Assembly: GCA_045543215.1 (NCBI GenBank)
Contig: JAZQMD010000149.1
Coordinates: forward strand, 1-43,001
Direction: 5' to 3'
Length of the DNA stretch: 43,001 nucleotides
DNA from: Oscillospiraceae bacterium
Lineage (GTDB): Bacteria; Bacillota; Clostridia; Oscillospirales; Oscillospiraceae
Part shown: positions 1-36,119 of the stretch, in pieces
Position numbering within the stretch: position 1 is the stretch's first letter
How the letters are laid out: each line of letters opens with the position of its first letter
The notes under the pieces: model-generated
The model's input: only the letters and a program-made list of their open reading frames with translations
Told to the model about the DNA's origin: nothing
The model's database searches: none
Program-made: the position numbers and the translations under genes

Positions 1-679
1 GTACCTCCTCTCTAAGGGAGGGGTTGTAACGCACTACCAGCAGGGGGATGGTCAGGGAGAAGCATATTGCCATTACAACCAGGGACCAGCCTGGGAGCCA
101 GTGGCCCTGAAGCCAGCGATCAGTGAAGAGTTCAACCCCCATGAGGAATACACCAATAGAAGAGATAATAAGAGTGATAGAGGACAAGGTGGAGCGATGC
201 CGCAGGGTGATGCCTAAAAAAAGGAGTACTGCAGTGGCCAGCAGTACGATGGGAAGAGCCAGACTCCAGAACCAGTCCCAGCCGTCCAGGGTGGTGGCAA
301 TGAGGAAAAGAAATACGCCTACAGCCACACCGTCCATCCCCAGACGAAAGGTAAGTGGGAGGCCGCGGACCCACAGAGGAAGGGCCAGCCAGATCCACAG
401 TACGGCGGCACCCCCCACTACAAATAAGGACCAGTGCACCTGAGGCCGCAGGAAGATGTTGAGTAGGGAGCAACATATAGCTACCGAAAGGAGCATGGTG
501 CTTATAAGCAAGGCGGCCTCTCGCTTGGAGGCTGTGGGAATCTCGGTCCGCTGAGTGGGGAAGGGTGTGGGGGAAGTGGTATCCACCGGTTGGTTGGGAT
601 TGCAAACCGGCGTACGGCATAGTGGACAAAATGTGCAGGTTCGATCCAGTTCTACACCGCAGTATATACAATAGGACAT
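1..679 (-). CDS. Zinc-ribbon N-terminus plus polytopic membrane protein. Partial: the 3' end runs off the left window edge.
   Basis: Absent from the ORF track because it has no in-window stop. The minus-strand frame from ATG (complement of 677-679) reads MSYCIYCGVELDRTCTFCPLCRTPVCNPNQPVDTTSPTPFPTQRTEIPTASKREAALLISTMLLSVAICCSLLNIFLRPQVHWSLFVVGGAAVLWIWLALPLWVRGLPLTFRLGMDGVAVGVFLFLIATTLDGWDWFWSLALPIVLLATAVLLFLGITLRHRSTLSSITLIISSIGVFLMGVELFTDRWLQGHWLPGWSLVVMAICFSLTIPLLVVRYNPSLREEV. It has a CxxC...CxxCxxC cluster followed by several hydrophobic helices. A GGAAAGGGG SD-like element lies just upstream, and the start is 16 nt after the stop of the 696-2000 gene. Confidence 0.65.
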   Translation of the reverse strand, partial: MSYCIYCGVELDRTCTFCPLCRTPVCNPNQPVDTTSPTPFPTQRTEIPTASKREAALLISTMLLSVAICCSLLNIFLRPQVHWSLFVVGGAAVLWIWLALPLWVRGLPLTFRLGMDGVAVGVFLFLIATTLDGWDWFWSLALPIVLLATAVLLFLGITLRHRSTLSSITLIISSIGVFLMGVELFTDRWLQGHWLPGWSLVVMAICFSLTIPLLVVRYNPSLREEV

Positions 680-695
680 GAGAGGACCCCTTTCC

Positions 696-18734: not shown

Positions 18735-18975
18735 TAAAAAAGCCTTTCCTCCCCGTAATGGGGACGAAAGGCATAGCTCCCGCGGTACCACCCACCATTC
18801 GTGCAAAGTTTGCACGCGCTTATAGCCCATAACGGTGGCTGGCCGGTTCCGTCTTTCCCCAGAACCCCTCCCAGGCGAACTAAGCGCAGCACCCCGGGAC
18901 GGCTTGCAGCCAATGGCCGACCCTCTCTTAGAGATGCGGGAATACGCTATTTTCCTGTTCAAAGGGTTTAAACTA
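18735..18975 (-). promoter_or_regulatory. T-box leader (tRNA-Phe responsive) with terminator/antiterminator
   Basis: The minus strand reads AATGGTGGGTGGTACCGCGGGAG (T-box consensus; complement of 18781-18803). Next comes terminator GCCTTTCGTCCCC-atta-cGGGGAGGAAAGGC + TTTTTT (18735-18772). Stem I shows AGAGAG and GGTGC elements. The candidate specifier UUC is the complement of 18877-18879. Confidence 0.85.
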
Positions 18976-19083: not shown

Positions 19084-19116
19084 ACCCTGGCGCGGAGATT
19101 TGCTCCGCACCAGGGT
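19084..19116 (-). terminator. Intrinsic terminator closing MFP/ABC/SLH operon 1
   Basis: 12-bp GC-rich stem CCCTGGTGCGGA-gcaaat-CTCCGCGCCAGGG on the minus strand, followed by TGTTTATTT. It starts 12 nt after the SLH gene stop. Confidence 0.8.
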
Positions 19117-19127
19117 CTTATATTTCT

Positions 19128-21440
19128 TTATCTGGATACCAAGATACGTACTTTACCACCCTCATTGGGATTGCGGTCATAATAAGCAACAAATGTGTTG
19201 GAGGAGGCTAGAAAATCGTTGAGTGAGGCCACCCAGCTTCCGCTGCGGCTATTGTAGCACAGCAAATCTGAAGACAGAGGCAGGGTTAGGATACCTGCCT
19301 TGACGCTGTTGCTTTCCAGGTCAATGTTCTGGCGGGAAAAGCTGGTGGTAGGTATGAGTCCTATGGTGCGCACCAGGGTCTGCTTTGTTCCATCAGAACT
19401 GGAGGCAGAAACCCAACCTACAAATTGGCTACCGAAATCAGTAGATACACCGGAGGTGACTGTAATGGAGTTTTTGGGGTTAGAAAAGGTTATATTGTAG
19501 GATTGGCTAGATGGGTTGCCATTTTCGTCCTTTTCCTCCGAGAGCGAAGTACTGACTATGCCATACTGATATGCGGTTCCCGTAATATCATTCAAAACAA
19601 TTAGATCGACCTTGCCCGCATAATTGGTACGAGCGTAGGTAATATCATCGGCAGGAACGGAAAGGAAGGGTATATCAGCAAGGGCTACCTCTACCACAGG
19701 CCCCTTTCCAACCCGATCATAGATATGGACAGTGTTGGACAGAGGGGTGGAGCCTAAGGTCTTTCTTGATACATCAAGGGCACCGGGAAGGGATGAGGAG
19801 GTGAGACGAACCAGAGAAAGGTTTCCGCCCCTGCCGCTATAGGTTACTGATACCAGTTGGCCGTCTAGGTTACCCACATTGCTGCCGATATAAGTACCCT
19901 TAAGCTCAGGTAAGACGGAGTCCAGTAGTTTGACGGTGGCGGTGGAGCCGCTGATGGAGGCGATGCCTACGGCGTTGGCCCGACATTCAGAGGGGGAGAC
20001 AGCCCCAGCTACCATACCGTCTGAAGTGAAAAGCAAGGTCATGGCAGAGCCGACCTGGAAGTTGCGCAGGGTATCCCAGGCGGATTCCAGCACAGGAAAC
20101 TCAGCACCCAAAAGCTTAATTTTGGTAGGCGCAGTAAGGTTTGGAGTAGCCTCCTCGTAAACACCGGAAAGGCGCAGATCGGAAACCATCAGGCTGCGGG
20201 TAGTGGGGTCATAGGTGGCCACATCGTACTGACGGATATCGGAGGAAGTGGCCTGACTACCGTTTTTATAGATGGTGTATCCGGTATCTTTGCCCACCAG
20301 GGAAAGAAAGGGATTGCCAACATTGTTTCCAAAATTGATTACAGCACCGCCGGTGGAGGAGGTGGTATTTACATAAATGTAGTCAACCCCGCCAGCGGCG
20401 GTATAGTAGACCGTGAGGGAGACTCCCCTTCGGTCCAGGGTAACCCAGCTTTCCCCATAGGTCGATTTTTCATCATTACGCCAAACAGGAGTAGAGGCGG
20501 AAAGGGCAAGAAAGGTGCCGTTGTTCAGGGTCAAACCGGAGGCAGAGGCTCCATTGGAAATCACGGTGGAATTACTGGTGCCCTGGTTTGGCAGGAAGGT
20601 GAGAAACCGCCCTGCGGAGTTGTATACTGCAATTCCGCTTTTGCCCTGGAAGAAGGAGGCGGGATTATTCACCGCAGGGAGCACCGCGTCCTTACCAGAT
20701 ACCTGGACAGCACCGGAAGAGCCATCGGCAGTCTTGGCATTGCAGTTTAGCAATAGTGCTCCAGACACCACTGAGCCACGGGAGGCAGCATAAATATCTC
20801 CACTCTCCTTAGGATTGGCAAGTAGCATGTTGTAAAACAGCAAGGCGGCCTGACCTCGAGTGATGGCATCTCCACTGGTAAGGAAGGGAAGGCCCTTGGT
20901 CAATCCAATAGTCTGGGCGGTGGAGATGGCACCCTGGGGCCAGCTTACACTGGCCTCAGCAGTATAGCCCAGAACGCGTAAGAGGATGGTAATTGCCTCG
21001 CCGAAGGTAATGTTGCGCCCTGGACGGAAAGTACCATCCCCTATTCCCATGATGAGGCGGGCACCTGAGCTTTGCTCCACCACTTGGGCGGAGGCTAGGT
21101 TAATATACCCTCTGGCCCAATATGTGCCAGTCACGTCAGAAAAGACGGTACGGTTGGCTTGGGCGGCAACTTGGTCACCCAGACCCATGATGGTCACGGT
21201 TAGTTTACAGAATTCAGCTCGATTGAGATTGCCTTCGGGATTATAAGTACCGCCGGGCAGGCCGTCGATAACTCCCATCATGCGTAGGGCCTCCACTGAC
21301 TCGCCCAGGGTTGGATCAGTAATATCGGAGAAGGTGGATACCGTGCCGCTGGCGGAAGAGGCTGCGGCAGAGGGGACAACGATAAGGCTGGATAAGCAGG
21401 CAGCAGTCAAAATAGACGCTAAAATTGGTTTTATCTTCAT
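19128..21440 (-). CDS. Secreted SLH-domain cell-wall-anchored protein with a large uncharacterised beta-rich C-terminal region (cassette 1)
   Basis: 770 aa. Signal peptide MKIKPILASILTAACLSSLIVVPSAAA. Three SLH repeats (FSDITDP...NLNRAEFCKL; FSDVTGTYWARGYINLA...FRPGRNITFGEAITILLRVLG; ...ITRGQAALLFYNML). About 550 aa of Ser/Thr/Gly/Val-rich sequence follows. The GAGGAG SD overlaps the permease stop, and the intergenic gap is 13 nt. Confidence 0.85.
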   Translation of the reverse strand: MKIKPILASILTAACLSSLIVVPSAAASSASGTVSTFSDITDPTLGESVEALRMMGVIDGLPGGTYNPEGNLNRAEFCKLTVTIMGLGDQVAAQANRTVFSDVTGTYWARGYINLASAQVVEQSSGARLIMGIGDGTFRPGRNITFGEAITILLRVLGYTAEASVSWPQGAISTAQTIGLTKGLPFLTSGDAITRGQAALLFYNMLLANPKESGDIYAASRGSVVSGALLLNCNAKTADGSSGAVQVSGKDAVLPAVNNPASFFQGKSGIAVYNSAGRFLTFLPNQGTSNSTVISNGASASGLTLNNGTFLALSASTPVWRNDEKSTYGESWVTLDRRGVSLTVYYTAAGGVDYIYVNTTSSTGGAVINFGNNVGNPFLSLVGKDTGYTIYKNGSQATSSDIRQYDVATYDPTTRSLMVSDLRLSGVYEEATPNLTAPTKIKLLGAEFPVLESAWDTLRNFQVGSAMTLLFTSDGMVAGAVSPSECRANAVGIASISGSTATVKLLDSVLPELKGTYIGSNVGNLDGQLVSVTYSGRGGNLSLVRLTSSSLPGALDVSRKTLGSTPLSNTVHIYDRVGKGPVVEVALADIPFLSVPADDITYARTNYAGKVDLIVLNDITGTAYQYGIVSTSLSEEKDENGNPSSQSYNITFSNPKNSITVTSGVSTDFGSQFVGWVSASSSDGTKQTLVRTIGLIPTTSFSRQNIDLESNSVKAGILTLPLSSDLLCYNSRSGSWVASLNDFLASSNTFVAYYDRNPNEGGKVRILVSR

Positions 21441-21453
21441 ATTTATTCTCCTC

Positions 21454-22704
21454 TTAATCTGCCCTCAGGGCCTCCACAGGCTGCAGGCGGGAAGCTTTTG
21501 CGGCGGGGTATAGACCAAAAATGATGCCAAGGGCCACCGAGATAGCGAAGGCCCCTACGGTGATCTCAATACCGGGCAACATGATAACATTAAAGGACAT
21601 TTTGCCTACGATAAGGGTACCAAGACAGCCAACTATAATACCAAAAAGTCCACCGATACCACAAATCATGGCCGCCTCAATCAGGAATTGGACAATAATG
21701 CTCCTGCGTTCAGCGCCAATCGCTTTGCGAATGCCGATCTCGCGGGTGCGTTCAGTGACGGTAACCAGCATAATATTCATGATACCGATACCGCCAACCA
21801 GAAGGGAAATGGCCGCAATGCCGCCCAAAAACCGTTGCTGGAGGGCGTTTGCTTCATTTTGCTCCGCTTGAAAGACACTCTCGTTGAACACGTCTGAATA
21901 ACCGTAACCATTACTAATCAGGCCGCTGAGAAAACCTTTTATGAGAGTGGCAGCGTGCATGGCAGACCGGCTATCTTTCGCCTTCACAATATACTGCTCG
22001 ATAGGCTGGTTGTTGTTAAATATCCGATTAAAGGTATGGGGGATGACCACGATGCGGTCCATGCGGCTCATCTCCATCTGTTGCCAGTTGTCTCCCTCCT
22101 CATTGGGCTGGGTTACGCCAGAGCCTTTGGCTCCGTATACCCCTATAACCAGAAAGGGTAGTCCGTTGATGGTGATGGTCTTGCCAACCGGGTCTACTAA
22201 GTTGAACAGGGTGGAGGCGATGCCAGAACCAAGCACACATACCTGGTTAGACTTTTGCACGTCTAAGTAGCTCAGCTCCCGACCGTTTACTACCTTATAA
22301 TTGTTGCATAAGCCAAACTGGTCATTGCTTAAGTAGAGGGTGGGGCGGGTGTTCCAGTCCTCCTCAGCTCCTATGGATTGGACGCCGTATTTAATGATAG
22401 TGTTGCTTGATACCTGACCCATAGGGGTAACTCCGGTTACGTAGTCATCTAGTTGGAGACAGTAATCATATAGTTCTCCGGCCACGTCGATCCCGCCTTG
22501 CCAGGTGGATGCATGTACGGTGAGTTTATTGTTACCCATGCTATCATAATACTCTTGAAGGGCAAGATTCTGACCCTTGGCATAGGACACCAGGATAATG
22601 ACAGCGGCCAAACCAATGATGACACCCAACATGGTGAGTAAAGAGCGCCCTTTGTTGGATGAAATGGATTTTGCAGCCATCTTAAGAGCTTGGGTGATGT
22701 TCAT
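21454..22704 (-). CDS. MacB-type ABC transporter permease (MacB periplasmic-core domain + FtsX)
   Basis: 416 aa. N-terminal TM helix, an extracytoplasmic domain of about 250 aa, three C-terminal TM helices, and the conserved ends ERTREIGIRKAIGA and GLYPAAKASRLQPVEALRAD. Its start overlaps the ATPase stop by 4 nt. Confidence 0.9.
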   Translation of the reverse strand: MNITQALKMAAKSISSNKGRSLLTMLGVIIGLAAVIILVSYAKGQNLALQEYYDSMGNNKLTVHASTWQGGIDVAGELYDYCLQLDDYVTGVTPMGQVSSNTIIKYGVQSIGAEEDWNTRPTLYLSNDQFGLCNNYKVVNGRELSYLDVQKSNQVCVLGSGIASTLFNLVDPVGKTITINGLPFLVIGVYGAKGSGVTQPNEEGDNWQQMEMSRMDRIVVIPHTFNRIFNNNQPIEQYIVKAKDSRSAMHAATLIKGFLSGLISNGYGYSDVFNESVFQAEQNEANALQQRFLGGIAAISLLVGGIGIMNIMLVTVTERTREIGIRKAIGAERRSIIVQFLIEAAMICGIGGLFGIIVGCLGTLIVGKMSFNVIMLPGIEITVGAFAISVALGIIFGLYPAAKASRLQPVEALRAD

Positions 22705-23399
22705 AGTCCGACCTCCTCTCGGCTTCCGTCGGCTACAATGTGTCCATCGGAGATACGTACAATGCGTGAGGCAGTAGATGCAATACCGTTGTCGTGGGTA
22801 ATTAGAATAATGGTGCGGCCTTCTTCTTCATGGAGAGCGTGGAGTATCTCCAGCACATGTCGCCCGGTTTTGGAATCCAGAGCGCCGGTTGGTTCATCCG
22901 CCATAATAATGGGGGGGCGGGTAGCAATGGCCCGGGCGATGGCTACCCGCTGTTGCTGACCACCAGACATCTCAGAGGGCTTATGGTCGGCCCGGCCATC
23001 CATGCCAACTTTTTCAAGGGCCGCCATGATTAGCTCCTTCCGTTTCCCAATAGGGATGCCCTGATAAATCAGGGGAAGTTCTACATTTTCATAAGCGGAC
23101 AGGGCGGGAATGAGATTGTAGCCCTGAAAGATAAATCCGATCTCTTTGTTACGAATGTGGGCCAGTTCCCGGTCATTAAGCTCGGTGATATCAGTGCCGT
23201 CCAGGTGATAGTCTCCATGGGTTGGAATGTCCAGACAGCCCAGGATGTTCATCAAGGTAGATTTACCTGAACCAGAGGTACCGATAATAGCCACAAACTC
23301 TCCCCGGTCAATGGAAAGGGAGACTCCATCTAAGGCGCGCACTTCACTTTCCAGGCCCTCGTGATAGATTTTATATAGGTTTTGAATATCGATTAACAT
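22701..23399 (-). CDS. MacB/LolD-type ABC transporter ATP-binding protein
   Basis: Walker A GTSGSGKST, signature [13 protein letters not shown], Walker [14 protein letters not shown]-loop ITHD. Confidence 0.95.
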   Translation of the reverse strand: MLIDIQNLYKIYHEGLESEVRALDGVSLSIDRGEFVAIIGTSGSGKSTLMNILGCLDIPTHGDYHLDGTDITELNDRELAHIRNKEIGFIFQGYNLIPALSAYENVELPLIYQGIPIGKRKELIMAALEKVGMDGRADHKPSEMSGGQQQRVAIARAIATRPPIIMADEPTGALDSKTGRHVLEILHALHEEEGRTIILITHDNGIASTASRIVRISDGHIVADGSREEVGL

Positions 23400-23410
23400 A
23401 AGACCACTCC

Positions 23411-25120
23411 TTAATATGCGGTGGTCATTACATAGCTGTTAAAAACAACGTCGCCTTCGTTAAGACCAGAGGTAATCTCTACATTGTAACGGTCACTCAG
23501 GCCAGTTTCTACCGGGACAGGATAATAACCGTCTTTTTCAGTGGGATACTGGAGGGATGTGTCCCCTGGCGCAGATTCGGGCAGATCGGCATCCACGGTA
23601 TTTTCTGGGCGGCTGTCTGCCTCAAGAAAGACCACGGTGACTGGATTTCCATCTTTATCACTTATGGACTTAACACATTGAATGGGAATGGTAACACAGT
23701 TTTCCGATTCGCTGGTGACAAAGGAGTAGGTCAGCCACATGCCCTGCAGAAGAGTACCGTCTTGGTTATCGACAGTGAGGGTAACAGGATAATTGGTCAT
23801 ACCAGAGGAACTGGAACCACCACTCCCACCGGCGGTCATGTTGATATTAGTGACGGTACCCGTGTATGTGTTTTCGTTGTGATCAGTCAGATCAATGGTC
23901 ATGCCTGGCTTGACAAAGCTGATGTTGCGGTCATCTACCGTAATTTCTACGATCATGCTGGTTGTATTGGAAATGGTAATAACAGTGTCGTTGGCTTTGA
24001 CGCTCTGTCCCGGAGAAATAGTGCAGGACATAACAACCCCGTCAATTGGTGCTACAGCATTGAAGTTGGCAAGTGCCTTCTGGGCCTCACTCAGCTTGTC
24101 TTGGGCATCACTAATCTCTTTTTGTTTAGCCCGAATAAGGGACTCCTGCTCTTCCGAGCCAAGCGCCAGCAGGGTTTGCCCAGCAGTGACGTTGGCATAC
24201 TTAAGTAAATCTACCGATAGAACAGGTCCTCCTGCCTTTGTAGTAATCTCCCGTGTTTCGTAATACTCCAGCTTTCCGTTTTCATAGGGAAAGATGGATG
24301 AGCCGTCGGCAGCAATCATGGAGGCGGTGGCCTCCATATCGGCGGTGAGGGTGCCGGGATTTTTAAGGGCGACCACAACCTCGAAGAGGGTAGCCCCTTC
24401 TGGAACCACACGGCTAACCTTGTTAATGGTTTCCACTGTTCCGGTGTGAGTGCCCATAGTGGAGGGGATAGAGACCTCTACGCTCTGGCCTATGTAAATG
24501 TCATTTTCGTAGGCGTAACTGTAATAGAGGGGCAGCTTCAGAGTGAGGTCGTTGACTAAGGTAGCCACAGCAGCACCAGAAGCGGCGTTTTCACCCACCT
24601 GAAATTTTCCGACTTCAATCAGTTTTCCGGAGAAAGGGGCGGTAATCGTCAGATTATTAAGGGCTTTTTGAAGGTCGTTCATGTCTTTACGCAGGCCATT
24701 TAAAGATTCCTGGGCGGCGGTAACGGCATCCTGGGCCACGGTGGAGTTGATGGTGTATAGGGGCTGGCCAGCCGTGACCGTTTCACCTTCAGATACAAAG
24801 ACCTCCTGCACAGTGCCTCCGGCGGTAAGGGTAATTGCGGCGGTGTCTTTGGGTTTGGCATTGCCGTTGCCCTGTACGGTACTGCGGATGGTATCGACGG
24901 TGGCAGTGGAAGGGAGGATACTACCTTGAGTGTTGGGCTTTCGGAATACGAAATACCAGATGGAAAAAACCGCAGCGGCCAAGATGGCAATCGTGACTAC
25001 AATGCCAATGATTCGTTTAATTTGCCGTTTACTGCGTTTTTTCTTAACTGGCTTGCCGGGCATAGTGGGTGCGGCTGGCGCTTCTGCCACAGCTACGGCA
25101 CTATTTTGCTTTTCTGACAT
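23411..25120 (-). CDS. HlyD/membrane-fusion-protein family periplasmic adaptor, unusually long (cassette 1)
   Basis: 569 aa. Basic N-terminus plus one TM anchor (IIGIVVTIAILAAAVFSIWYFVF). Lipoyl/barrel-sandwich-like GETVTAGQPLYTI. Coiled-coil segments (AQESLNGLRKDMNDLQKALNNL; KEISDAQDKLSEAQKALANF). AGGAGG SD upstream. Confidence 0.85.
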   Translation of the reverse strand: MSEKQNSAVAVAEAPAAPTMPGKPVKKKRSKRQIKRIIGIVVTIAILAAAVFSIWYFVFRKPNTQGSILPSTATVDTIRSTVQGNGNAKPKDTAAITLTAGGTVQEVFVSEGETVTAGQPLYTINSTVAQDAVTAAQESLNGLRKDMNDLQKALNNLTITAPFSGKLIEVGKFQVGENAASGAAVATLVNDLTLKLPLYYSYAYENDIYIGQSVEVSIPSTMGTHTGTVETINKVSRVVPEGATLFEVVVALKNPGTLTADMEATASMIAADGSSIFPYENGKLEYYETREITTKAGGPVLSVDLLKYANVTAGQTLLALGSEEQESLIRAKQKEISDAQDKLSEAQKALANFNAVAPIDGVVMSCTISPGQSVKANDTVITISNTTSMIVEITVDDRNISFVKPGMTIDLTDHNENTYTGTVTNINMTAGGSGGSSSSGMTNYPVTLTVDNQDGTLLQGMWLTYSFVTSESENCVTIPIQCVKSISDKDGNPVTVVFLEADSRPENTVDADLPESAPGDTSLQYPTEKDGYYPVPVETGLSDRYNVEITSGLNEGDVVFNSYVMTTAY

Positions 25121-25257
25121 TTTATAATCCTCCTAAAATCAGGTATAGGTGTCAGTGTAATGTAAAGAAGGATAAAATACAATTACAAAAAAGAAACAAA
25201 TCTGTTAAAATTTTTTAAAATTAACCCTTATTTTTCATTTTTCCTACATTAGTAAAA

Positions 25258-25302
25258 TTCGTCTCAATGAATAAGACGAAAAAGGTAGAGGAATGTTTCC
25301 TC
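25258..25302 (-). terminator. Candidate terminator hairpins downstream of asnA
   Basis: The minus strand shows GAGGAAacaTTCCTC followed by TACCTTTTT, then TCGTCTtattcattgAGACGA followed by ATTTT. Confidence 0.5.
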
Positions 25303-25393
25303 CTAATAATGAAAAAATTTAGAGTCTAATTAAGACAGCGCCGGGACCGATTCAGAAGCATGTCATTTAAAGAAAGTATGGATTGGGGTGAAA

Positions 25394-26407: not shown

Positions 26408-26532
26408 AGTAATTACTCCTTTGCATTTTAGTATAGTTTAATTTTAAAAGCAGCGGGATGATTTTGCTCAGCAGAAATCTATATTTACACTTACCTGAGC
26501 ATCTTTATGCCAGCCCGCTTTTCTTGGCAATT

Positions 26533-26561
26533 ATTATAGGGGATTTGCCGAAAAAAGGCAA
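26533..26561 (-). promoter_or_regulatory. asnA promoter
   Basis: Minus strand: -35 TTGCCT (26556-26561), 17-nt spacer, -10 TATAAT (26533-26538). It is about 125 nt upstream of the asnA ATG. Confidence 0.6.
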
Positions 26562-26575
26562 GGGAAATTCGACCC

Positions 26576-26604
26576 TTGTTTTTTTTGCCTATGCACCCTA
26601 TAAT
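26576..26604 (+). promoter_or_regulatory. icd promoter, back-to-back with the asnA promoter
   Basis: -35 TTGTTT (26576-26581), 17-nt spacer, -10 TATAAT (26599-26604). Confidence 0.55.
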
Positions 26605-26640
26605 AGGCTTAGATTTGAAAGAGAAGGCAGGGTGGTAGCC

Positions 26641-27849
26641 GTGGAAAAGATTAAGATGAGCACCCCTCTTGTGGAGCTGGATGGGGATGAAATGACCCGC
26701 ATTCTTTGGCAGGACGTAAAGGATATTCTTCTCACCCCTTATATCGATTTAAAGACCGAATATTACGACCTGGGCTTGCCTGAGCGGGAGCGCACTGGCG
26801 ACCAGGTTACTGTGGAAGCTGCACAGGCCATCAAAAAGTATGGAGTGGGGGTTAAATGTGCCACCATTACCCCAAATGCCCAACGGGTTGAAGAATATAA
26901 GCTGACTCAGATGTGGAAGTCCCCTAACGGCACCATCCGGGCTATCCTGGATGGCACTGTGTTTCGCACTCCCATTATGGTGAAGGGGATCAGTCCCGTG
27001 GTGAAAAACTGGCAGCGGCCTATTGCCATTGCCCGCCACGCCTTTGGGGATGTATATAAGGCCAGTGAATATCGAGTCCCTGGTCCCGGCAAGGCGGAGT
27101 TGGTGGTCACTGGCGGGGACGGAAAAGAATACAGACAGATGATACACGATTTCAAAGAACCTGGCGTACTTCAGGGGCAGTTTAATCTGGATGGATCGAT
27201 TTCTTCCTTTGCCCGTTCCTGTTTCCAGTATGCGGTGAATACCAGGCAGGATTTGTGGTTTTCTACAAAGGATACCATTTCCAAGCAGTACGATCATACC
27301 TTTAAGGATATTTTTGCGGAGATTTTCGTCCAAGAGTATGAAGCCAAGTTTAAAGAGCTGGGGCTTTCCTATTTTTATACCCTGATCGATGACGCGGTGG
27401 CCCGTGTCATCCGATCCAAGGGGGGCTTTATCTGGGCCTGCAAGAATTATGACGGGGACGTAATGAGTGATATGGTTTCTACTGCCTTTGGCTCCCTGGC
27501 TATGATGACCTCTGTGCTGGTTTCTCCCGACGGTAAGTATGAGTACGAAGCCGCCCACGGAACTGTGACCCAGCACTATTACCGCCATTTGAGAGGGGAA
27601 GAGGTCTCCACCAATCCCATGGCCACTCTATTTGCCTGGACAGGGGCCTTGGCCAAGCGGGGAGAGCTGGATAGCATTCCCCAGCTGACTGCCTTTGCCC
27701 AAAAGGTGGAAAAGGCGGCTGTTTCTACGATTGAGGGGGGAACCATGACGGGGGACCTGGCCGGACTGTGGGAGGGTGCTAAGCCCGCTTGTAAGGTAAC
27801 TGGCCGGGAGTTTCTTCAGGCCATCCGCGCCACGATGGAGGCCATGTGA
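26641..27849 (+). CDS. icd: NADP-dependent isocitrate dehydrogenase (eukaryote-like, ~400-aa subfamily)
   Basis: [40 protein letters not shown] blocks. The start is taken at GTG 26641, giving (M)[14 protein letters not shown] as in homologues. ATG 26656 is an alternative. The track start at 26458 lies upstream of the predicted promoter. Confidence 0.9.
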
Positions 27850-27872
27850 TTCATCCAAAAAAGGAGAACACT

Positions 27873-30701: not shown

Positions 30702-32537
30702 TTAAGTGGGTTTAGCCACGATTACCCGGATGCAGCCTCCCTGGGCTATGGGCTTATCATAGTATCCGGTGAGGGAATAGTCCCCGGTCACATATCCCAG
30801 TGAGGCAAAGAACCAGTCGCCGTCATAGATAAATACCTGTACCTCATCAGACAGCCTCCAGGCGGCGCCGCTTTTATCGTAGCCAATGCCTGCTGACAGG
30901 GAGGTAAAGGGAACCTTTCCAGTAAGGGATGCCAAAGAGCCGTCGGTGCGTAGAGCAAAGGGGCCAGGCTGAACGTAATAGAGTAGGTTCAATAAGTGGG
31001 CCTGGGACTGCCCACCAATGTTATAGGTATAGCGGGCAGAGACGCTAAGGGGGGAAGACAGATCTTGAATGGCGGTGAGGATACCATACTGATCTAGGTC
31101 CCCGGTCACATCGTTTAGGATTAAATGACTGATGCGACCAGCGGAGTCTGTGGCATAAAAGCGTACCATGTTGTCGGTAAGGTGGACCCCAGCCAGACGA
31201 GCAGGATAGACCCGCAGGGTTTCCGTGGGGCTGCGAACGTCTAAGATCTGGACCTCTCCAGCCAGCTCATAGTTGCCGATGGTCTGGGCCTGGTCGTCCA
31301 CCCTTCCGGAAATGGAAGCGGAAGAGACGTTGGTCAGTCTGACAGATCCGTCATCTGTGATTTTCACTTGCATCAGGCTGCCCAGGGTGGGAAGATAGTC
31401 CTGGGTTGGATAGGTATAGGAAAGGCCATCCGTGGCGGTGAGGGTAACCGTTTTGGAGGTATAGCTCTCTCCATCGGCATTGGAGAATGAGCCTGTTCCG
31501 GTAGCGGAAACTACACCGTAAAGTACACCGGCAGAGTCCAAGGGGGAGAGGACGGCGGCTACGCCTCCATCCTTACCCAGCAGCAGGGTAATCTGATCTC
31601 CAATCCTGTAGGTTCCAAAGCTGGAAAGGGCATGGGAGGCAGAGGCAGTCTCAATCGCGTAGGTTTTGCCAGCAACGGTTACGGAAGTGGGGCTGGAAGG
31701 AGAGGGGGAGGCGTTTTGATAGATACCGGTAATCTTCCTGGTATAGGCCCAAACAGTACTCATTGATTTGGAATAATAAATTACATCGTTTTCCTCAATC
31801 GCGGACAGAGAGGAGAGGAAACCGCTGCGGTAGACTGTCCTGGGGGTAAAATCCAACTGGGGGGCCAAATCCTGTCTGGCTACAATAGGCCCCTCCATAG
31901 CAGAGTGGATCAGATCGTTTACGTCAATCTCACCCGAGAGGGTAAGTGTGTGGCCTAAGGTGGTGAGATAAATGGACCCATCCTTGGCGGGGGTGGTAAG
32001 CATGTTATAGAATAAATACATGGAATCCCGGCGGGTGAGGGGTGTAGAGCTGTCGGTGGAGGCTACCCCTTTATCCAGACCCAGGGCACGGTATTTGGCC
32101 ATCCTGCCGGTTACACCATTAAAGTCGCTGTTTGGATAGCCTAGCAGTCGCAGGACAATGGTCACTCCCTCCAACAGGGTAATTTGGTTGCTGGGGCGGA
32201 AAGTACCGTCTAAATAACCGGTAATCAGCCCGGTGGAGACGGCTTTTTCCACATAAGGGGCAGCCCAGTGAGTATGGGGTACATCGGGATAAGGGGAGAC
32301 AGCGGTTTGCCCCCCTATGGAGGTTCCATAGGGAGAGGCGGCCACCGCCATTTTGACAAACTGGGCTCGATTGACGTGGCTGTCCAAGCTCAGGTTTCCT
32401 TTTTCGTCCCCCACCATGATGTCTAAGGCAGCCATGGTGGTGATGATCGGGGATAAATCAGCGTTGATGGCAGAAACCGAAAGGATGGGGGTGAGCAAGA
32501 GGGAGGAGAGGAGCAATGCGGTCAGTCTTCGCTTCAT
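30702..32537 (-). CDS. Secreted SLH-domain cell-wall-anchored protein, paralogue of 19128-21440 (cassette 2)
   Basis: 611 aa. Signal peptide MKRRLTALLLSSLLLTPILSVSA. SLH repeats (VNRAQFVKMAVAAS; YPDVPHTHWAAPYVEKAVSTGLITGYLDGTFRPSNQITLLEGVTIVLRLLG; LTRRDSMYLFYNML). The C-terminal region shares motifs with the cassette-1 protein. AGGAGG SD lies 9 nt upstream, and the gap after the permease stop is 26 nt. Confidence 0.85.
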   Translation of the reverse strand: MKRRLTALLLSSLLLTPILSVSAINADLSPIITTMAALDIMVGDEKGNLSLDSHVNRAQFVKMAVAASPYGTSIGGQTAVSPYPDVPHTHWAAPYVEKAVSTGLITGYLDGTFRPSNQITLLEGVTIVLRLLGYPNSDFNGVTGRMAKYRALGLDKGVASTDSSTPLTRRDSMYLFYNMLTTPAKDGSIYLTTLGHTLTLSGEIDVNDLIHSAMEGPIVARQDLAPQLDFTPRTVYRSGFLSSLSAIEENDVIYYSKSMSTVWAYTRKITGIYQNASPSPSSPTSVTVAGKTYAIETASASHALSSFGTYRIGDQITLLLGKDGGVAAVLSPLDSAGVLYGVVSATGTGSFSNADGESYTSKTVTLTATDGLSYTYPTQDYLPTLGSLMQVKITDDGSVRLTNVSSASISGRVDDQAQTIGNYELAGEVQILDVRSPTETLRVYPARLAGVHLTDNMVRFYATDSAGRISHLILNDVTGDLDQYGILTAIQDLSSPLSVSARYTYNIGGQSQAHLLNLLYYVQPGPFALRTDGSLASLTGKVPFTSLSAGIGYDKSGAAWRLSDEVQVFIYDGDWFFASLGYVTGDYSLTGYYDKPIAQGGCIRVIVAKPT

Positions 32538-32563
32538 GGTAGAGGCCTCCTAGAGAGTTTGAA

Positions 32564-33754
32564 TCAATCATAACGTAAAGCATCAATGGGATTGAGGGCA
32601 GCAGCCTTATTGGCGGGCAGGTAGCCGAACAAAATACCCACTCCGGCAGATACACCGAAGGAGACGCAGATAGCCATCACCGAAGGGACTGCGGCCACCC
32701 CTACCATGGAGCCTGCCAAACCGGCCAGAGCAATTCCAAGAAGGATGCCAATGATTCCGCCCACAGCGGAGGTAGTCGCCGCCTCGATGATGAACTGGCT
32801 GCGAATGTCCCGGCGCTTGGCCCCCAGGGATTTGCGAATACCAATCTCCCGGGTGCGCTCGGTAACCGAGACCAGCATGATATTCATAATGCCAATTCCA
32901 CCGACCAAGAGGGAAATGGCTGCGATGGCTACCAGTACGGTCATGACCGTGTCGGTGATGGTACCCATGAGGCTCATCATCTCGCTCATAGAGATAACCA
33001 TGTAGTTGTTATTGTCATCCCCTTCCTCCAGGCTGTAGAGTCGGTCCATAGCGGTCTCAATGACCGCCTTGGCCTGGGTGGACACTTCATCACCGGCGGC
33101 GGAAAAGTTATACTGGGTGACTGCGGTGCTGCCGTTAATCCGACCAGCATTGGTGTAGGGAATGTAAATGGTGTTGTCATCGCCGTAGGAAGTGTTGTCG
33201 GCACTTTCGGTAAGCACCCCGATGACCTGGTAAGTTACGCCGTTGATGTGGAGGGACTGACCGTAACCTGCGCCGTTAAAATGCTCTTCGTCTATATAGG
33301 AGCCAATGACGCACACATTCTGCATCCTTGCTACATCAATGTATTGAAGGAAACGGCCCTGGGACACCTCGAGGGATTTAATGGCAATATAGTCCTCTCC
33401 CACGCCGGTGACGGTGGAGGTAAAAACCTCATCTTTAGTCTTGAGGCGTGGCTCATTGAGAGAGACTACCGGGGAGACGGCCCGTAAGTATTGGGGATAT
33501 TCTTCAGCTAACTCGTACATATCCTCTGGTTTGCTCTGGACTGTTCCGCCACGTCCTATGTCATAGACTTGAAGGAGATTGGAACCCATTTTATCAAACT
33601 CCTCGTTAATCAGGGCATTCATACCGTCTCCCAAGGAGATGATGATAATGACGGCAGCCACACCGATGATGATACCCAACATGGTAAGCAAGGCACGCAT
33701 CTTGCTGGTGGACAGGGCCTTAAGAGCCAGGCGAAAGGACTGGGTAAAATTCAT
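32564..33754 (-). CDS. MacB-type ABC transporter permease (cassette 2)
   Basis: 396 aa. Same architecture as 21454-22704. ERTREIGIRKSLGA and GYLPANKAAALNPIDALRYD. 4-nt overlap with the ATPase gene. Confidence 0.9.
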   Translation of the reverse strand: MNFTQSFRLALKALSTSKMRALLTMLGIIIGVAAVIIIISLGDGMNALINEEFDKMGSNLLQVYDIGRGGTVQSKPEDMYELAEEYPQYLRAVSPVVSLNEPRLKTKDEVFTSTVTGVGEDYIAIKSLEVSQGRFLQYIDVARMQNVCVIGSYIDEEHFNGAGYGQSLHINGVTYQVIGVLTESADNTSYGDDNTIYIPYTNAGRINGSTAVTQYNFSAAGDEVSTQAKAVIETAMDRLYSLEEGDDNNNYMVISMSEMMSLMGTITDTVMTVLVAIAAISLLVGGIGIMNIMLVSVTERTREIGIRKSLGAKRRDIRSQFIIEAATTSAVGGIIGILLGIALAGLAGSMVGVAAVPSVMAICVSFGVSAGVGILFGYLPANKAAALNPIDALRYD

Positions 33755-34482
33755 AAGCCGCCCCCCTCATCGGCGGAGACTACCGCCCTTGGATCGTGGG
33801 CGGGGCCGTCGTAGATGATTCTGCCGTCCTGAAGGCGGATAATGCGGTGGGCTTTGATGGCAATAGCGTTGTCATGGGTAATAAGGACAATGGTATTGCC
33901 TGCATCATTGAGCTTTTGAAGAAAATCGATAACTTCCCGGCCGGTGCGGGAGTCCAGCGCGCCGGTGGGCTCATCGGCCAAGATAACTGAAGGCTCCCCA
34001 GCCAGGGCCCGGGCGATGGACACCCGCTGCTGTTGGCCCCCGGAAAGCTGGGAGGGACGGTTTTTCATTTTATCGGACAGTCCCACCAGGGCCAAAGCCT
34101 GGGAGGAGCGTTGGTGGCGCTCGGCAGCGGAGAAACCGGCATAGAGTAGGGGAAGTTCCACATTTTCCTGTACATTAAGTGTGGGAATAAGATTATACTG
34201 CTGGAAAATGAAGCCCAGCATCCTGTTACGAATCTCAGCCTGCTGGTCATCATCCATGCCGGACACATCCTGTCCGTCAAGATAGTAGCTGCCTGAGGTA
34301 GGTACATCCAGGCAACCGATGATGTTCATGGCAGTAGACTTGCCTGAGCCGGACTGGCCCACAATGGCTACAAACTCTCCCCTGTTGATACTCAGGGAGA
34401 TTCCATCCAGGGCATGGATATGGTCATCCCCCATCTGATAGATCTTGTAAAGGTTCCGGAACTCGATGAGATGCCCATTCAT
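33751..34482 (-). CDS. MacB/LolD-type ABC transporter ATP-binding protein (cassette 2)
   Basis: Walker [10 protein letters not shown], signature [13 protein letters not shown], Walker [13 protein letters not shown]-loop ITHD. Confidence 0.95.
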
Positions 34483-36119
34483 GGTATGTCACCCATGTTT
34501 CCGGGACTGGCGGTCATAGCCATGCCCATCAGTTCATAGATAGAACTGGCCGTGTTGACAATAGCCACCGTATCGCCCTCATCCAGGCCGGAGCGCACTT
34601 CAATGTAGTCCTCGTCGTTGCGGCCCAGTTCCACCGTGGTTTCAACCAGCCGGTCAGGAAGGAGATTGCCTTGATCGTCAAAAGCATCCACCCCAGCCAG
34701 CAGGACGGTGTTCCCACGCTGCACCGCACCTACAGGAATTCGCAATACATTCTCAGCCCGCTCCACCAGGATATGGGCGGAAACATTCATGCCGGGAAGA
34801 AGATCCTCACCATTGTCGATGACCACGGTGACAGGATAGTTGGTTACCCCTCCCATGGTGGTGCCGTTGATGTTAATGGTTTCCACCCAGCCGTGAAAGG
34901 TCTGCCCCTCGGCTGCGTCGGCAGTAATTTCCACCTTCTGGCCGGGTCTCACCTGGGAAATATATAGTTCATCTACATTCATGTCAAAGGTGAGGGTGGA
35001 CATATCGAAAATGACTGCCAAATAACCTGCCCCAGCTTCCAGATTGTCTCCCGCCTGAAAGTTTTTTTCAATGACCGTGCCGGAAATGGGAGAGGTAATG
35101 GTATAGTCCTCCAGTCGATCCTGGGCATTTTTCAGGGCAAGTTGGGCAGTTTCCAGGGAGATACGGGCGCTCTCCACCTGGGTAGAGATGCTATCATTGT
35201 TATAAGAGCCCAAGGTCTGGTTCTTGGAAACCCAGTCACCTTCGGATACATACAGCTCAGACAGGGTGCCGTTGTTGCGGGCATGGACAGTGGATTGGGC
35301 AGAGTAGGAGAAGGTTCCTACAGCCGAACAGCTGGCCTCTCCCACCGTAGCTGTACCTGTCATGCCCTCGGTAAGAGCACCCGGATTAGCCACCTGAATC
35401 GTTACTTTGCGAGTAAGGGCACCTCCGGCTCCCACTTCATTGATGGGAGAAATTTGGGTGATTGTACCTGTCAAAGGCTCCAAGGCATCCCCGGCCAAGA
35501 CCACGGCGGACTGGCCGATCTGAAAGCCTTGAGCTTGGGAGCTGTGGAAGGGCAGTTCCAGGGTCATGGTGTTCCGGTCCAGGATGTCAATTATGGGGGA
35601 GCCGGAGGTCACATAGTCCCCTTCATCCACATAGAGTTTGGTAATTATCCCGGTGTCGGTGGATTTTAGAGCGCTGTCTCCCTGCGTGGCGATGAGAGAG
35701 TCGTAACTAAGCTGGGCCTGCTCTACAGACAGACGGGCCTGGGCGATGGAGTTCTCCAGATCGGAGGAATCGATCTGGTAGAGCACATCCCCTTTCTGTA
35801 CCGTGTCTCCGACCTGAAAAGGGGCATCCAGAATCTCCCCGGTGACCAAAGCAGTCACTCGGTAGGAGTTGTTTGGTTCCACCACAGCTGAGCCGGAGAC
35901 TTGGACAGTGATCTCTCCTATATCGGCTGTAGCGGGGATGTAAAGAGAGGAGGCCAGTTGCTTGCCTGCAGAGCTGATAGAATGCAGGAGCAAAGCCCCG
36001 GCCAGACCAATGATAATCAGGATGATGGCAAGACGGATAGGCCATTTGTGTTTCTTCTTCGGGACGGGGAGATTAGGGGCTGGAGCTCCCGTAGCTCCTT
36101 GTGTGGTGACGCTTTGCAT
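34479..36119 (-). CDS. HlyD/membrane-fusion-protein family periplasmic adaptor, unusually long (cassette 2)
   Basis: 546 aa. Basic N-terminus plus TM anchor (IRLAIILIIIGLAGALLLHSI). GDTVQKGDVLYQID lipoyl-like motif. Coiled-coil segments (IAQARLSVEQAQLSYDSL; ARISLETAQLALKNAQDRL). AAGGAG SD upstream. 4-nt overlap with the ATPase gene. Confidence 0.85.
   Translation of the reverse strand: MQSVTTQGATGAPAPNLPVPKKKHKWPIRLAIILIIIGLAGALLLHSISSAGKQLASSLYIPATADIGEITVQVSGSAVVEPNNSYRVTALVTGEILDAPFQVGDTVQKGDVLYQIDSSDLENSIAQARLSVEQAQLSYDSLIATQGDSALKSTDTGIITKLYVDEGDYVTSGSPIIDILDRNTMTLELPFHSSQAQGFQIGQSAVVLAGDALEPLTGTITQISPINEVGAGGALTRKVTIQVANPGALTEGMTGTATVGEASCSAVGTFSYSAQSTVHARNNGTLSELYVSEGDWVSKNQTLGSYNNDSISTQVESARISLETAQLALKNAQDRLEDYTITSPISGTVIEKNFQAGDNLEAGAGYLAVIFDMSTLTFDMNVDELYISQVRPGQKVEITADAAEGQTFHGWVETININGTTMGGVTNYPVTVVIDNGEDLLPGMNVSAHILVERAENVLRIPVGAVQRGNTVLLAGVDAFDDQGNLLPDRLVETTVELGRNDEDYIEVRSGLDEGDTVAIVNTASSIYELMGMAMTASPGNMGDIP

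What the first reader, a model, noticed from the sequence alone, without database searches (positions are those of the whole stretch)
19128..25120. MFP + MacB-type ABC pump co-transcribed with a secreted SLH-anchored wall protein (cassette 1)
Four minus-strand genes are packed with an 11-nt gap, a 4-nt overlap and a 13-nt gap, and the SLH gene's SD overlaps the permease stop codon. The only convincing terminator is the one after the SLH gene (19084-19116). The first three genes form a canonical MacA/MacB-like set.

In diderms such pumps are completed by a TolC-type outer-membrane factor. In the best-known monoderm relative, B. subtilis YknWXYZ, the fourth component is a Yip1-type membrane protein. 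Here the fourth gene encodes a Sec-exported 770-aa protein with three SLH repeats. About 550 aa of Ser/Thr/Gly-rich, apparently all-beta sequence follows, in which I recognise no domain. The adaptor is also long: 569 aa, against roughly 370-400 aa for classical MacA-type adaptors.

My hypothesis is that the SLH protein is a wall-level partner, either a docking or conduit element through the peptidoglycan/S-layer or a dedicated cargo or receptor. That would make this a four-component envelope machine I am not aware has been described.
Basis: partly seen in the sequence, partly recalled or inferred. Interest (0 to 1): 0.7.

Follow-up and report, generated by a model that had tools for sequence, protein, structure and literature searches.

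The report
MacB pump with wall-anchored fourth partner
A drug-pump-like ABC exporter in a gut Clostridia relative is always encoded together with a secreted, cell-wall-anchored protein of unknown fold. This points to an undescribed fourth component for such pumps in bacteria that lack an outer membrane.

Summary
Four minus-strand genes (25120 to 19128) encode an HlyD/MacA-type adaptor, an ABC ATPase, a MacB-type permease and a Sec-exported SLH protein. The gaps are 11, -4 and 13 nt, and one strong terminator follows the last gene.

New findings:
1. A paralogous four-gene cassette lies at 36119-30702.
2. The gene order adaptor-ATPase-permease-SLH held in every related locus examined: 80 of 80 species genomes, plus 8 further contigs covering divergent and long variants. 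The median permease-to-SLH gap is 17 nt. All four genes co-segregate by cassette type.
3. The adaptor is long because it is an internal tandem duplication of the lipoyl/hairpin/beta-barrel module.
4. The SLH protein consists of a signal peptide, an SLH triad, a variable stalk (a ~105-aa module in 1-6 copies) and a conserved ~280-aa C-terminal head.
5. The stalk module plus head is modelled as one compact all-beta unit (pLDDT 92, pTM 0.84). It has no Pfam, NCBIfam or PDB match. The family has about 1,500 clusters at 50% identity, and every named relative seen is Oscillospiraceae or unclassified Clostridia.

A dedicated pump-partner relationship is strongly supported. Whether the partner is an exit or docking element, a client or a regulated effector is untested. 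I rate it a new variant of a known kind.

The parts
25121..25393 (-). Upstream intergenic region. It holds the terminator-like hairpins of asnA (25303-25258) and presumably the cassette promoter.
   Evidence: The region is A+T-rich and 273 nt long. No strong sigma-70 consensus was found on the minus strand, so the promoter is inferred only.
23411..25120 (-). Adaptor (MFP/HlyD/MacA-type), 569 aa. It has an N-terminal TM anchor, two tandem lipoyl/short-hairpin/beta-barrel modules and a C-terminal membrane-proximal segment.
   Evidence: Pfam HlyD_3 (two stretches), HlyD_D23 and Biotin_lipoyl. NCBIfam RND_mfp, 142 bits. PDB MacA 4dk0 and Spr0693 5xu0. The N module aligns to the C module at 23% identity, E 3e-7.
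22701..23399 (-). ABC ATPase (MacB/LolD/FtsE-like nucleotide-binding domain), 232 aa.
   Evidence: Pfam ABC_tran, E 1.4e-34. NCBIfam best hits are the MacB NBD and LolD.
21454..22704 (-). MacB-type (type VII ABC) permease, 416 aa, with a large extracytoplasmic core domain.
   Evidence: Pfam MacB_PCD plus FtsX. PDB MacB 5lil E 4.6e-45, Spr0695 5xu1 E 1.4e-40.
21441..21453 (-). 13-nt junction with the GAGGAG Shine-Dalgarno sequence directly after the permease stop codon.
   Evidence: In 78 related loci the gap has a median of 17 nt, and 76 of 78 have an SD-like motif.
21360..21440 (-). Sec-type signal peptide of the SLH protein (about aa 1-27).
   Evidence: Sequence MKIKPILASILTAACLSSLIVVPSAAA. 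The signal peptide is conserved in the family consensus. The cleavage site is inferred.
20796..21335 (-). Triad of SLH repeats (about aa 36-215), the wall-polymer anchor.
   Evidence: Pfam SLH, E 3.2e-15. Foldseek matches to the Sap and SpaA SLH domains, probability 1.0, TM 0.69-0.77 on the target. PDB sequence hits.
20289..20783 (-). D1, a beta-rich stalk segment (aa 220-384) specific to the cassette-1 lineage.
   Evidence: AF2 model. It is absent from the cassette-2 paralogue. It is not detectably related to D2 or the head. No Pfam match.
19974..20288 (-). D2, a ~105-aa stalk module (aa 385-489) present in 1-6 tandem copies in family members.
   Evidence: HMM counts over 470 family proteins. 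Long variants P0241 and P0301.
19131..19973 (-). Conserved C-terminal head (aa 490-770). It carries the invariant motifs DVTGDxYxYG and YYD(x5)GGx(I/V)R.
   Evidence: It is always at the very C terminus. With D2 it is modelled as one compact unit, pLDDT 91.9 and pTM 0.84. No PDB fold neighbour. No Pfam match at E<=10. Invariant columns are listed.
19084..19116 (-). Intrinsic terminator that ends the cassette.
   Evidence: It is followed by the pheS T-box leader at 18971-18757.
34479..36119 (-). Cassette 2 adaptor (546 aa), also tandem-duplicated.
33751..34482 (-). Cassette 2 ABC ATPase.
32564..33754 (-). Cassette 2 MacB-type permease.
30702..32537 (-). Cassette 2 SLH protein (611 aa): SLH triad, one D2 module and the head. 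It starts 26 nt after the permease stop, with a GGAGG Shine-Dalgarno sequence.

Best explanation
The four genes form one operon that encodes a four-component envelope machine.

Shown:
- There is a MacB-type ABC pump, made of a separate ATPase and a four-helix permease with a large extracytoplasmic domain.
- There is a membrane-anchored adaptor that is an internal tandem duplication.
- There is a Sec-exported protein whose N-terminal SLH triad has the fold that anchors proteins to wall polymers.
- That protein carries, on a stalk of variable length, a conserved ~280-aa head of unknown fold.
- The four genes have stayed together, in this order and tightly coupled, in two paralogous lineages that diverged as whole cassettes.

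Inferred:
- Three copies of the tandem adaptor would give the pseudo-hexameric ring that six MacA copies give elsewhere.
- The adaptor's hairpins are short, so the ring cannot itself reach far from the membrane.
- The SLH protein is the pump's dedicated extracytoplasmic partner. It is pinned in the thin wall or outer-layer envelope typical of these Gram-negative-staining bacteria that lack an outer membrane. Its head meets the top of the adaptor ring or the permease domain.
- ATP-driven mechanotransmission would then expel a substrate from the membrane surface or the sub-wall space through the ring, and pass it to or past the wall-anchored partner. The substrate is probably a peptide or a lipophilic toxin, as for other Gram-positive MacAB-like pumps.
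- In function, the partner would take the place that TolC holds in diderms.
For: Operon anatomy.

Domain identities.

A second paralogous cassette in the window has homologous SLH C termini (23% identity over ~400 aa) and homologous adaptors.

Synteny:
- 80 of 80 genome loci from Flavonifractor, Pseudoflavonifractor, Lawsonibacter, Intestinimonas, Sporobacter, Papillibacter and related genomes have the permease directly upstream on the same strand.
- The full adaptor-ATPase-permease-SLH order is seen wherever the contig allows.
- The same order holds for cassette-2 orthologues, for long-stalk variants of 906-1329 aa, and for divergent members.
- The permease-to-SLH gap has a median of 17 nt, 52 of 78 gaps are <=30 nt, and 76 of 78 have an SD-like motif.

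Co-segregation: all four components best-match the same cassette type in 75 of 80 cassette-1-type loci and in all cassette-2-type loci. The cassette therefore duplicated and diverged as a unit.

Adaptor: tandem duplication in both adaptors. The hairpin segments are about 35 aa, against about 80 aa in Spr0693 (alignment).

SLH protein architecture: SLH triad, then 1-6 D2 modules, then a head that is always C-terminal. The head unit is confidently modelled and compact.

Envelope context: Flavonifractor plautii stains Gram-negative, has a multilayered wall and lacks LPS and BamA genes (PMC11448272).

Open question in the field: the role of adaptors in bacteria without an outer membrane is stated as unresolved in PMC5985334.
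Against: - There is no direct evidence of contact between the SLH protein and the adaptor or permease.
- The orientation of the head, inward towards the pump or outward, is unknown.
- Related tandem-adaptor pumps without an SLH gene exist, for example the convergent sets in L033, L061 and L074. The partner is therefore not needed by every such pump.
- The substrate is unknown. Only one orthologue was seen with an adjacent TetR regulator.
- Weak promoter-like matches inside the permease gene leave room for separate transcription.
- Oligomeric state and ring formation are inferred from MacA, not tested.
Confidence: 0.5

Rival explanations
1. The SLH protein is the pump's client, not its subunit. 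After Sec export, the MacB-type pump and adaptor would release it from the membrane surface, or help move or fold it into the outer wall layer. This is in the manner of LolCDE with lipoproteins or AatPABCD with dispersin.
For: - Each paralogous pump has its own SLH protein. Such a one-system, one-client layout is typical of dedicated secretion operons.
- MacB-family systems act on substrates that are already outside the cytoplasm (PMC5985334).
- Conserved translational coupling would equally fit co-production of a machine and its client.
Against: - The protein has its own cleavable signal peptide and a self-sufficient wall anchor, and the family consensus has no lipobox.
- It is 65-150 kDa, far above the protein substrates known for MacB systems, which reach about 10 kDa (PMC5985334).
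- Stoichiometric coupling as the last gene of a pump operon is unusual for an abundant surface client.
Confidence: 0.15
2. The pump acts as an FtsEX-like mechanotransducer. ATP-driven movements of the permease's extracytoplasmic domain would switch the activity of the wall-anchored SLH protein, for example a wall- or surface-layer-remodelling or binding activity in the conserved head. No substrate would be transported.
For: - Type VII ABC proteins include FtsEX, which controls extracellular partners, and this permease has weak FtsX-family matches.
- The head has invariant Asp, Tyr and Arg positions (D406, Y626, D755, R765), which could form an active or binding site.
Against: - The permease is far closer to MacB proper (E 1e-45) than to FtsX (E 1e-5 to 1e-3).
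- An HlyD/MacA-type adaptor is present, which the known FtsEX systems do not use (own knowledge).
- The head has no hydrolase, coiled-coil or other recognisable effector domain.
Confidence: 0.15
3. The SLH protein is an independent wall protein, such as a shield, an adhesin or a surface-layer accessory. It would merely be co-expressed with the pump because both serve the same stress response, without physical or mechanistic coupling.
For: - SLH proteins are numerous in these genomes, and other SLH genes flank the cassette in several loci.
- No contact has been shown.
Against: - Gene order, spacing and co-segregation are invariant across two ancient paralogous lineages and more than 85 loci.
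- This head family was never seen away from a MacB permease in any locus examined.
Confidence: 0.1

Closest known systems
MacAB-TolC tripartite efflux pump (E. coli, A. actinomycetemcomitans)
   Same: It has a MacB-type permease with an extracytoplasmic core domain, a MacB/LolD-like ATPase and an HlyD/MacA-family adaptor in one operon. A further envelope-level component completes the gene set.
   Different: - ATPase and permease are separate genes here.
- The adaptor is a tandem duplication with short hairpins.
- There is no outer membrane, and no TolC/OEP gene among the window ORFs scanned.
- The extra component is a soluble, SLH-anchored all-beta protein, not a membrane barrel.
Spr0693-0694-0695 MacAB-like pump of Streptococcus pneumoniae (PMC5768738)
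   Same: It is a monoderm MacAB-like pump with separate ATPase and permease. The permease matches Spr0695 at E 1.4e-40, and the adaptor matches Spr0693.
   Different: The pneumococcal system has three components. Its single-module adaptor has a long hairpin channel, which is thought to span the sub-wall zone (PMC5985334). Here the hairpins are short and a fourth, wall-anchored protein is always present.
YknWXYZ (Bacillus) and AS-48EFGH (Enterococcus) four-component MacB-type systems
   Same: Both are Gram-positive MacB-type pumps with an adaptor plus a co-transcribed fourth protein (PMC5985334).
   Different: Their fourth protein is a polytopic membrane protein with four transmembrane helices. 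Here it is a secreted wall-anchored protein whose only hydrophobic segment is the signal peptide.
OmpM / SlpA-type SLH tethers of diderm Firmicutes and Deinococcus
   Same: An N-terminal SLH anchor links an envelope-level protein to the wall. PDB OmpM entries 8bys and 8bym match the SLH region only.
   Different: Those have one SLH motif plus a membrane beta-barrel porin. Here there is a three-repeat SLH domain followed by small soluble beta domains, with no porin-like match.
FtsEX with PcsB, CwlO or EnvC
   Same: A type VII ABC complex is functionally tied to an extracytoplasmic wall-associated partner.
   Different: - Those systems have no adaptor.
- Their partners carry coiled coils and hydrolase or activator domains.
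- This permease is MacB-like rather than FtsX-like.
- The head has no such domain.

Membership tests
MacB-type (type VII) ABC efflux system with adaptor | Permease with four TM helices and a large extracytoplasmic core domain between TM1 and TM2 (MacB_PCD plus FtsX) | tested here: met
   Pfam MacB_PCD E 2.1e-28 and FtsX E 1.1e-18. MacB 5lil E 4.6e-45 over residues 3-414.
MacB-type (type VII) ABC efflux system with adaptor | Cognate ABC ATPase of the MacB/LolD/FtsE group | tested here: met
   ABC_tran E 1.4e-34. Best NCBIfam hits are the MacB NBD (E 4.5e-76) and LolD. The 4-nt overlap with the permease gene is shown.
MacB-type (type VII) ABC efflux system with adaptor | HlyD/MacA-family adaptor encoded in the same operon | tested here: met
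   HlyD_3 and HlyD_D23. RND_mfp at 142 bits, above its cut-off of 94.9. MacA 4dk0 and Spr0693 5xu0.
Tripartite efflux pump of diderms (MacAB-TolC) | Outer-membrane factor of the TolC/OEP family | tested here: not met
   No OEP/TolC family among the window ORFs scanned. The relatives are bacteria without LPS or BamA genes (PMC11448272).
YknWXYZ-type four-component pump | Fourth component is a polytopic membrane protein (YknW or AS-48E type) | tested here: not met
   The fourth gene product has a single N-terminal hydrophobic signal segment and is otherwise soluble beta structure. There is no further small membrane-protein gene in the cassette.
SLH-anchored cell-wall proteins | Three SLH repeats forming the three-pronged SLH domain | tested here: met
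   Pfam SLH. Foldseek to Sap 3pyw and SpaA 6cwc/7sv5, probability 1.0, 165-190 aligned columns.
SLH-anchored cell-wall proteins | Binding to pyruvylated secondary cell-wall polymer (CsaB-dependent) | not testable with these tools
   The window holds no csaB. The rest of the genome is not available. The first repeat keeps an NRAE version of the TRAE motif.
OmpM/SlpA SLH-porin tethers | C-terminal membrane beta-barrel | tested here: not met
   The C-terminal region is modelled as small soluble beta domains. There is no porin or barrel match in the PDB.
FtsEX effector partners (PcsB, CwlO, EnvC) | Coiled-coil plus CHAP, NlpC/P60 or LytM domain | tested here: not met
   No such Pfam match even at E<=10. 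The model has no long helices.
LolA/LolB-like acceptor proteins | Unclosed beta-barrel with lid, detectable by fold | tested here: not met
   The only LolA match is rank 26, E 0.79, probability 0.02.

The most novel reading that the evidence does not exclude
The SLH protein is the distal element of a trans-envelope conduit in bacteria that have no outer membrane but have a thin wall with outer proteinaceous layers. Its head would dock on a pseudo-hexameric ring made of three tandem adaptors. Its stalk, of 1-6 modules, would set the distance to the wall anchor. It would thus be a protein-only analogue of TolC, making these cassettes a previously unrecognised class of four-component efflux or export machines.
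Probability: 0.25. Interest if true: 0.85.

Novelty: new variant of a known kind. Interest (0 to 1): 0.66.

Why it matters
Reviews of MacB pumps state openly that the role of adaptors in bacteria without an outer membrane is unresolved (PMC5985334). This finding offers a large, strictly conserved family in which such a pump always comes with a wall-anchored partner that has a new, confidently modelled fold. The family has about 1,500 clusters at 50% identity.

That makes the question directly testable by pull-downs, multimer models, cryo-ET and deletions. The named relatives are gut Oscillospiraceae (Flavonifractor, Pseudoflavonifractor, Lawsonibacter, Intestinimonas), whose envelopes are poorly understood.

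The work also defines two unannotated domains, the D2 stalk module and the C-terminal head. It identifies tandem-duplicated adaptors, which would change the expected stoichiometry of the adaptor ring.

Tried and rejected
1. Known domain in the C-terminal 550 aa: rejected.
   - Pfam at E<=0.01 on the whole protein and at E<=10 on four segments gave nothing.
   - NCBIfam gave only a spurious SLH-region hit, and PADLOC gave nothing.
   - A profile search of PDB sequences gave only SLH entries.
2. Known fold: rejected.
   - Foldseek of the full model against the PDB gave only SLH domains. Weak OB- or cold-shock-like array hits had probability <0.55.
   - BFVD gave nothing meaningful.
   - Foldseek of the high-confidence 386-aa unit gave no hit at E<=0.001. 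The best probability was 0.11 and TM about 0.1, and those hits were beta-propellers.
3. Outer-membrane barrel (OmpM-like) and LolA-like acceptor readings: rejected on the same results.
4. Variants without an SLH anchor: the ~420-aa family members start mid-domain and look like gene fragments, so there is no evidence for another anchor type.
5. D1 as a degenerate D2 copy: not supported.
6. Link between adaptor length and stalk length: suggestive in 8 loci (546-569 aa with one D2, 603 aa with three, 727-759 aa with five). It is broken by Flavonifractor-type loci, which have long adaptors and one D2, so it is not claimed.
7. Literature: five full-text searches found no paper that ties SLH proteins to MacB or HlyD systems or that describes tandem adaptors.
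8. Rfam at gathering threshold found nothing in the window. The T-box appeared only in the E-value search.
9. Complex modelling was not attempted. The structure tool returns no coordinates or inter-chain error estimates and accepts only single native sequences.

Full report
**1. Observation**

- adaptor, 23411-25120 (569 aa)
- ATPase, 22701-23399 (232 aa)
- permease, 21454-22704 (416 aa)
- SLH protein, 19128-21440 (770 aa)

The spacings are 11 nt, a 4-nt overlap and 13 nt. The last junction reads GAT TAA GAGGAG AATAAAT ATG, so the ribosome-binding site starts at the permease stop codon.

The only strong terminator-like hairpin on this strand is 19116-19084, with 14 pairs, 10 of them G-C, and a T-rich tail. 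The other candidates are short, and their number is no greater than in shuffled sequence.

Downstream of that hairpin lies a full-length T-box leader (18971-18757, 83.5 bits, E 1.3e-18, just under Rfam's curated threshold), followed by pheS and pheT. The cassette therefore has a clear 3' boundary. Upstream, asnA ends with its own hairpins at 25303-25258, and a 273-nt A+T-rich spacer precedes the adaptor gene.

**2. The pump**

The permease carries MacB_PCD and FtsX domains. It matches solved MacB structures at E 4.6e-45 and the pneumococcal Spr0695 at E 1.4e-40. Its matches to LolC and FtsX are far weaker. The ATPase is of the MacB/LolD/FtsE group. The adaptor passes the NCBIfam RND_mfp model and matches MacA and Spr0693. 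The first three genes are a bona fide MacAB-like set.

**3. Why the adaptor is long**

Pfam reports two HlyD_3 stretches. Direct comparison shows that residues ~115-310 align with residues ~311-500 at 23% identity (E 3e-7). The alignment covers half-lipoyl, hairpin, half-lipoyl and beta-barrel.

The cassette-2 adaptor shows the same duplication (26% identity, E 1e-7). Precomputed Pfam hits on orthologues also list the barrel-sandwich family twice.

The adaptor is therefore an internal tandem duplication, followed by one membrane-proximal segment that aligns with the end of MacA. Each hairpin segment is only about 35 residues, against about 80 in Spr0693 (alignment positions).

By inference, three copies would build the six-module ring that six MacA copies build. 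That ring would be squat rather than a long tube.

**4. The fourth protein**

It has a Sec-type signal peptide. An SLH triad follows, which superposes on the three-repeat SLH domains of B. anthracis Sap and P. alvei SpaA (probability 1.0, TM 0.69-0.77 on the target). About 550 residues then follow that are 33% Ser+Thr+Gly.

The full-length AlphaFold model (36-sequence alignment; pLDDT 80.9, pTM 0.51) is all-beta after residue 222 and breaks into small domains. The last 386 residues were modelled alone with a 94-sequence alignment. They come out as one compact unit (pLDDT 91.9, pTM 0.84).

No known family or fold matches this region:
- Pfam, even at E<=10, finds nothing.
- NCBIfam finds nothing.
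- A profile search of PDB sequences finds only SLH entries.
- Foldseek finds no hit at E<=0.001 for the compact unit; the best probability is 0.11.
- BFVD gives nothing meaningful.

**5. Family and architecture**

A profile of the C-terminal unit was scored against 1.84 billion representative proteins. It finds 1,497 clusters at E<=0.001 and 755 at E<=1e-30. Every named member seen is annotated only as an S-layer homology domain-containing protein or left unnamed. The named members come from Flavonifractor, Pseudoflavonifractor, Sporobacter and unclassified Clostridia.

HMMs for two sub-regions were run over 470 retrieved proteins:
- A ~105-aa module (D2) is present in 1-6 tandem copies.
- A ~280-aa head is always single and always at the very C terminus (median of one residue after it).

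The cassette-1 lineage has an extra unrelated segment, D1 (aa 220-384), before its single D2. The cassette-2 protein has just one D2. Long variants of 900-1450 aa have three to six D2 copies.

Positions invariant across both lineages cluster in the motifs DVTGDxYxYG and YYD(x5)GGx(I/V)R at the C-terminal end. The design is anchor, variable-length stalk, conserved head.

**6. Synteny, the key test**

The window contains a second cassette in the same order (36119-30702). Its SLH protein shares the D2-head unit with the first (23% identity over ~400 aa, E 1e-16), and its adaptor is 26% identical.

A scan of one genome per species returned 356 related stretches, of which 80 loci were kept. In all 80 a MacB-type permease lies directly upstream on the same strand. 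Wherever the contig is long enough the order is adaptor-ATPase-permease-SLH.

The same order holds in the further contigs examined:
- cassette-2 orthologues in P. capillosus and in metagenomes
- variants of 906, 1306 and 1329 aa
- a divergent 747-aa member
- a member whose head falls below detection

The permease-to-SLH gap has a median of 17 nt, is <=30 nt in 52 of 78 loci, and has an SD-like motif in 76 of 78.

In 75 of 80 cassette-1-type loci all four proteins are closer to cassette 1. In all cassette-2-type loci all four are closer to cassette 2. Most of the five exceptions appear to involve truncated contigs. The whole four-gene unit was therefore duplicated long ago, and each copy has since evolved as a unit. 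This is what a specific functional partnership predicts.

**7. Setting**

Both cassettes sit among housekeeping genes: arginine biosynthesis, pheST, asnA, icd, rubrerythrin, formate-tetrahydrofolate ligase and feoAB. No TolC-type gene and no polytopic fourth membrane protein is present.

The relatives belong to Oscillospiraceae. Flavonifractor plautii is reported to stain Gram-negative, to have a multilayered wall and to lack LPS and BamA genes (PMC11448272). These cells therefore have a thin wall with outer non-lipid layers, and the sub-wall space may be bounded more tightly than in classical Gram-positives.

**8. Mechanism**

The composition of the system, its operon structure, the co-inheritance of the four genes, the tandem adaptor and the modular stalk-head design are shown.

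The following is inferred. The SLH protein is the pump's dedicated extracytoplasmic partner, pinned in the wall by its SLH triad. Its head engages the adaptor ring or the permease domain. The pump expels a substrate from the membrane surface or the sub-wall space by mechanotransmission, as proposed for other MacB systems (PMC5985334), and the partner provides the docking or exit element at wall level. I give this 0.5.

The rivals are:
- The SLH protein is the pump's client (0.15). The protein's own signal peptide, its self-sufficient anchor and its size argue against this.
- An FtsEX-like switch controls an activity of the head (0.15). The MacB-like permease, the presence of an adaptor and the lack of any effector domain argue against this.
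- Co-expression without coupling (0.1). This is hard to reconcile with invariant synteny in two lineages.

Related tandem-adaptor pumps without an SLH gene exist next to some cassettes (L033, L061 and L074). The partner is therefore a lineage-specific addition, not a general requirement.

**9. Comparison with known systems**

The system works like a MacAB-type pump and passes the membership tests for that family. It fails the tests for the tripartite diderm form (no TolC) and for the YknWXYZ or AS-48EFGH form (the fourth protein is not a membrane protein). The SLH protein is a member of the SLH-anchored wall proteins. It is not an OmpM/SlpA-type porin tether, an FtsEX effector or a LolA-like acceptor.

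Full-text searches found no paper that connects SLH proteins with MacB or HlyD systems.

**10. Verdict**

The interpretation as a four-component machine is well supported at the level of a dedicated partnership, and untested at the level of contact and role.

It is a new variant of a known kind: a MacB-type pump with a tandem adaptor and a wall-anchored partner of new fold. Interest is 0.66.

Noticed in passing
window 18757-18971 (-): A full-length T-box leader lies upstream of pheS. It scores 83.5 bits, below Rfam's gathering score of 93, so it was missed at the curated threshold. A TTGCAT-17-TATAAA promoter-like site lies just upstream of it.
   Followed up: partly
window 30702-36119 (-): A second, paralogous adaptor-ATPase-permease-SLH cassette lies 5.6 kb from the first. 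Its SLH protein (611 aa) lacks the D1 segment.
   Followed up: yes
L085 3419-5698, L089 3615-5798, L086 4182-5993, L087 4379-6076: Adaptors of long-stalk and divergent systems carry a Pro/Glu/Met-rich low-complexity insert before the last membrane-proximal strands. They also have Gly/Met-rich C-terminal tails (GGMPGGG repeats). The window's adaptor 1 has no such tail, and adaptor 2 has only a weakly Met-rich end (window 34479-34640).
   Followed up: partly
L033 10812-14424, L061 10797-14367, L074 10365-13792: In Sporobacter-like genomes a second adaptor-ATPase-permease set, without an SLH gene of its own, converges on the 3' end of the SLH gene.
   Followed up: no
L081 3730-4362; L081 2687-3430; L083 3347-4081: A TetR-family regulator sits directly upstream of the cassette-2 orthologue in Pseudoflavonifractor capillosus. 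An M23 peptidase gene lies divergently upstream in two cassette-2-type loci. Neither is present in the window.
   Followed up: no
window 26458-27849 (+): The isocitrate dehydrogenase ORF is 463 aa, but family matches begin at residue 63. Only 50 nt separate it from the divergent asnA. The true start codon is probably about 60 codons downstream.
   Followed up: no
window 27846-28973 (+): A 375-aa protein with a copper amine oxidase N-terminal-like domain, a type common in clostridial envelope proteins, lies between the two cassettes. It has no NCBIfam match.
   Followed up: no
window 38071-40488 (+): An FeoA-FeoB fusion protein (805 aa) lies next to formate-tetrahydrofolate ligase and a Sir2-family gene.
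   Followed up: no
window 132-2000 (-): Two adjacent ORFs (179 aa and 434 aa, starting with TTG and GTG) have no Pfam match.
   Followed up: no
window 1-43001: GC skew is positive throughout although genes lie on both strands. G+C falls from about 0.52 to 0.42 in the last 2 kb.
   Followed up: no
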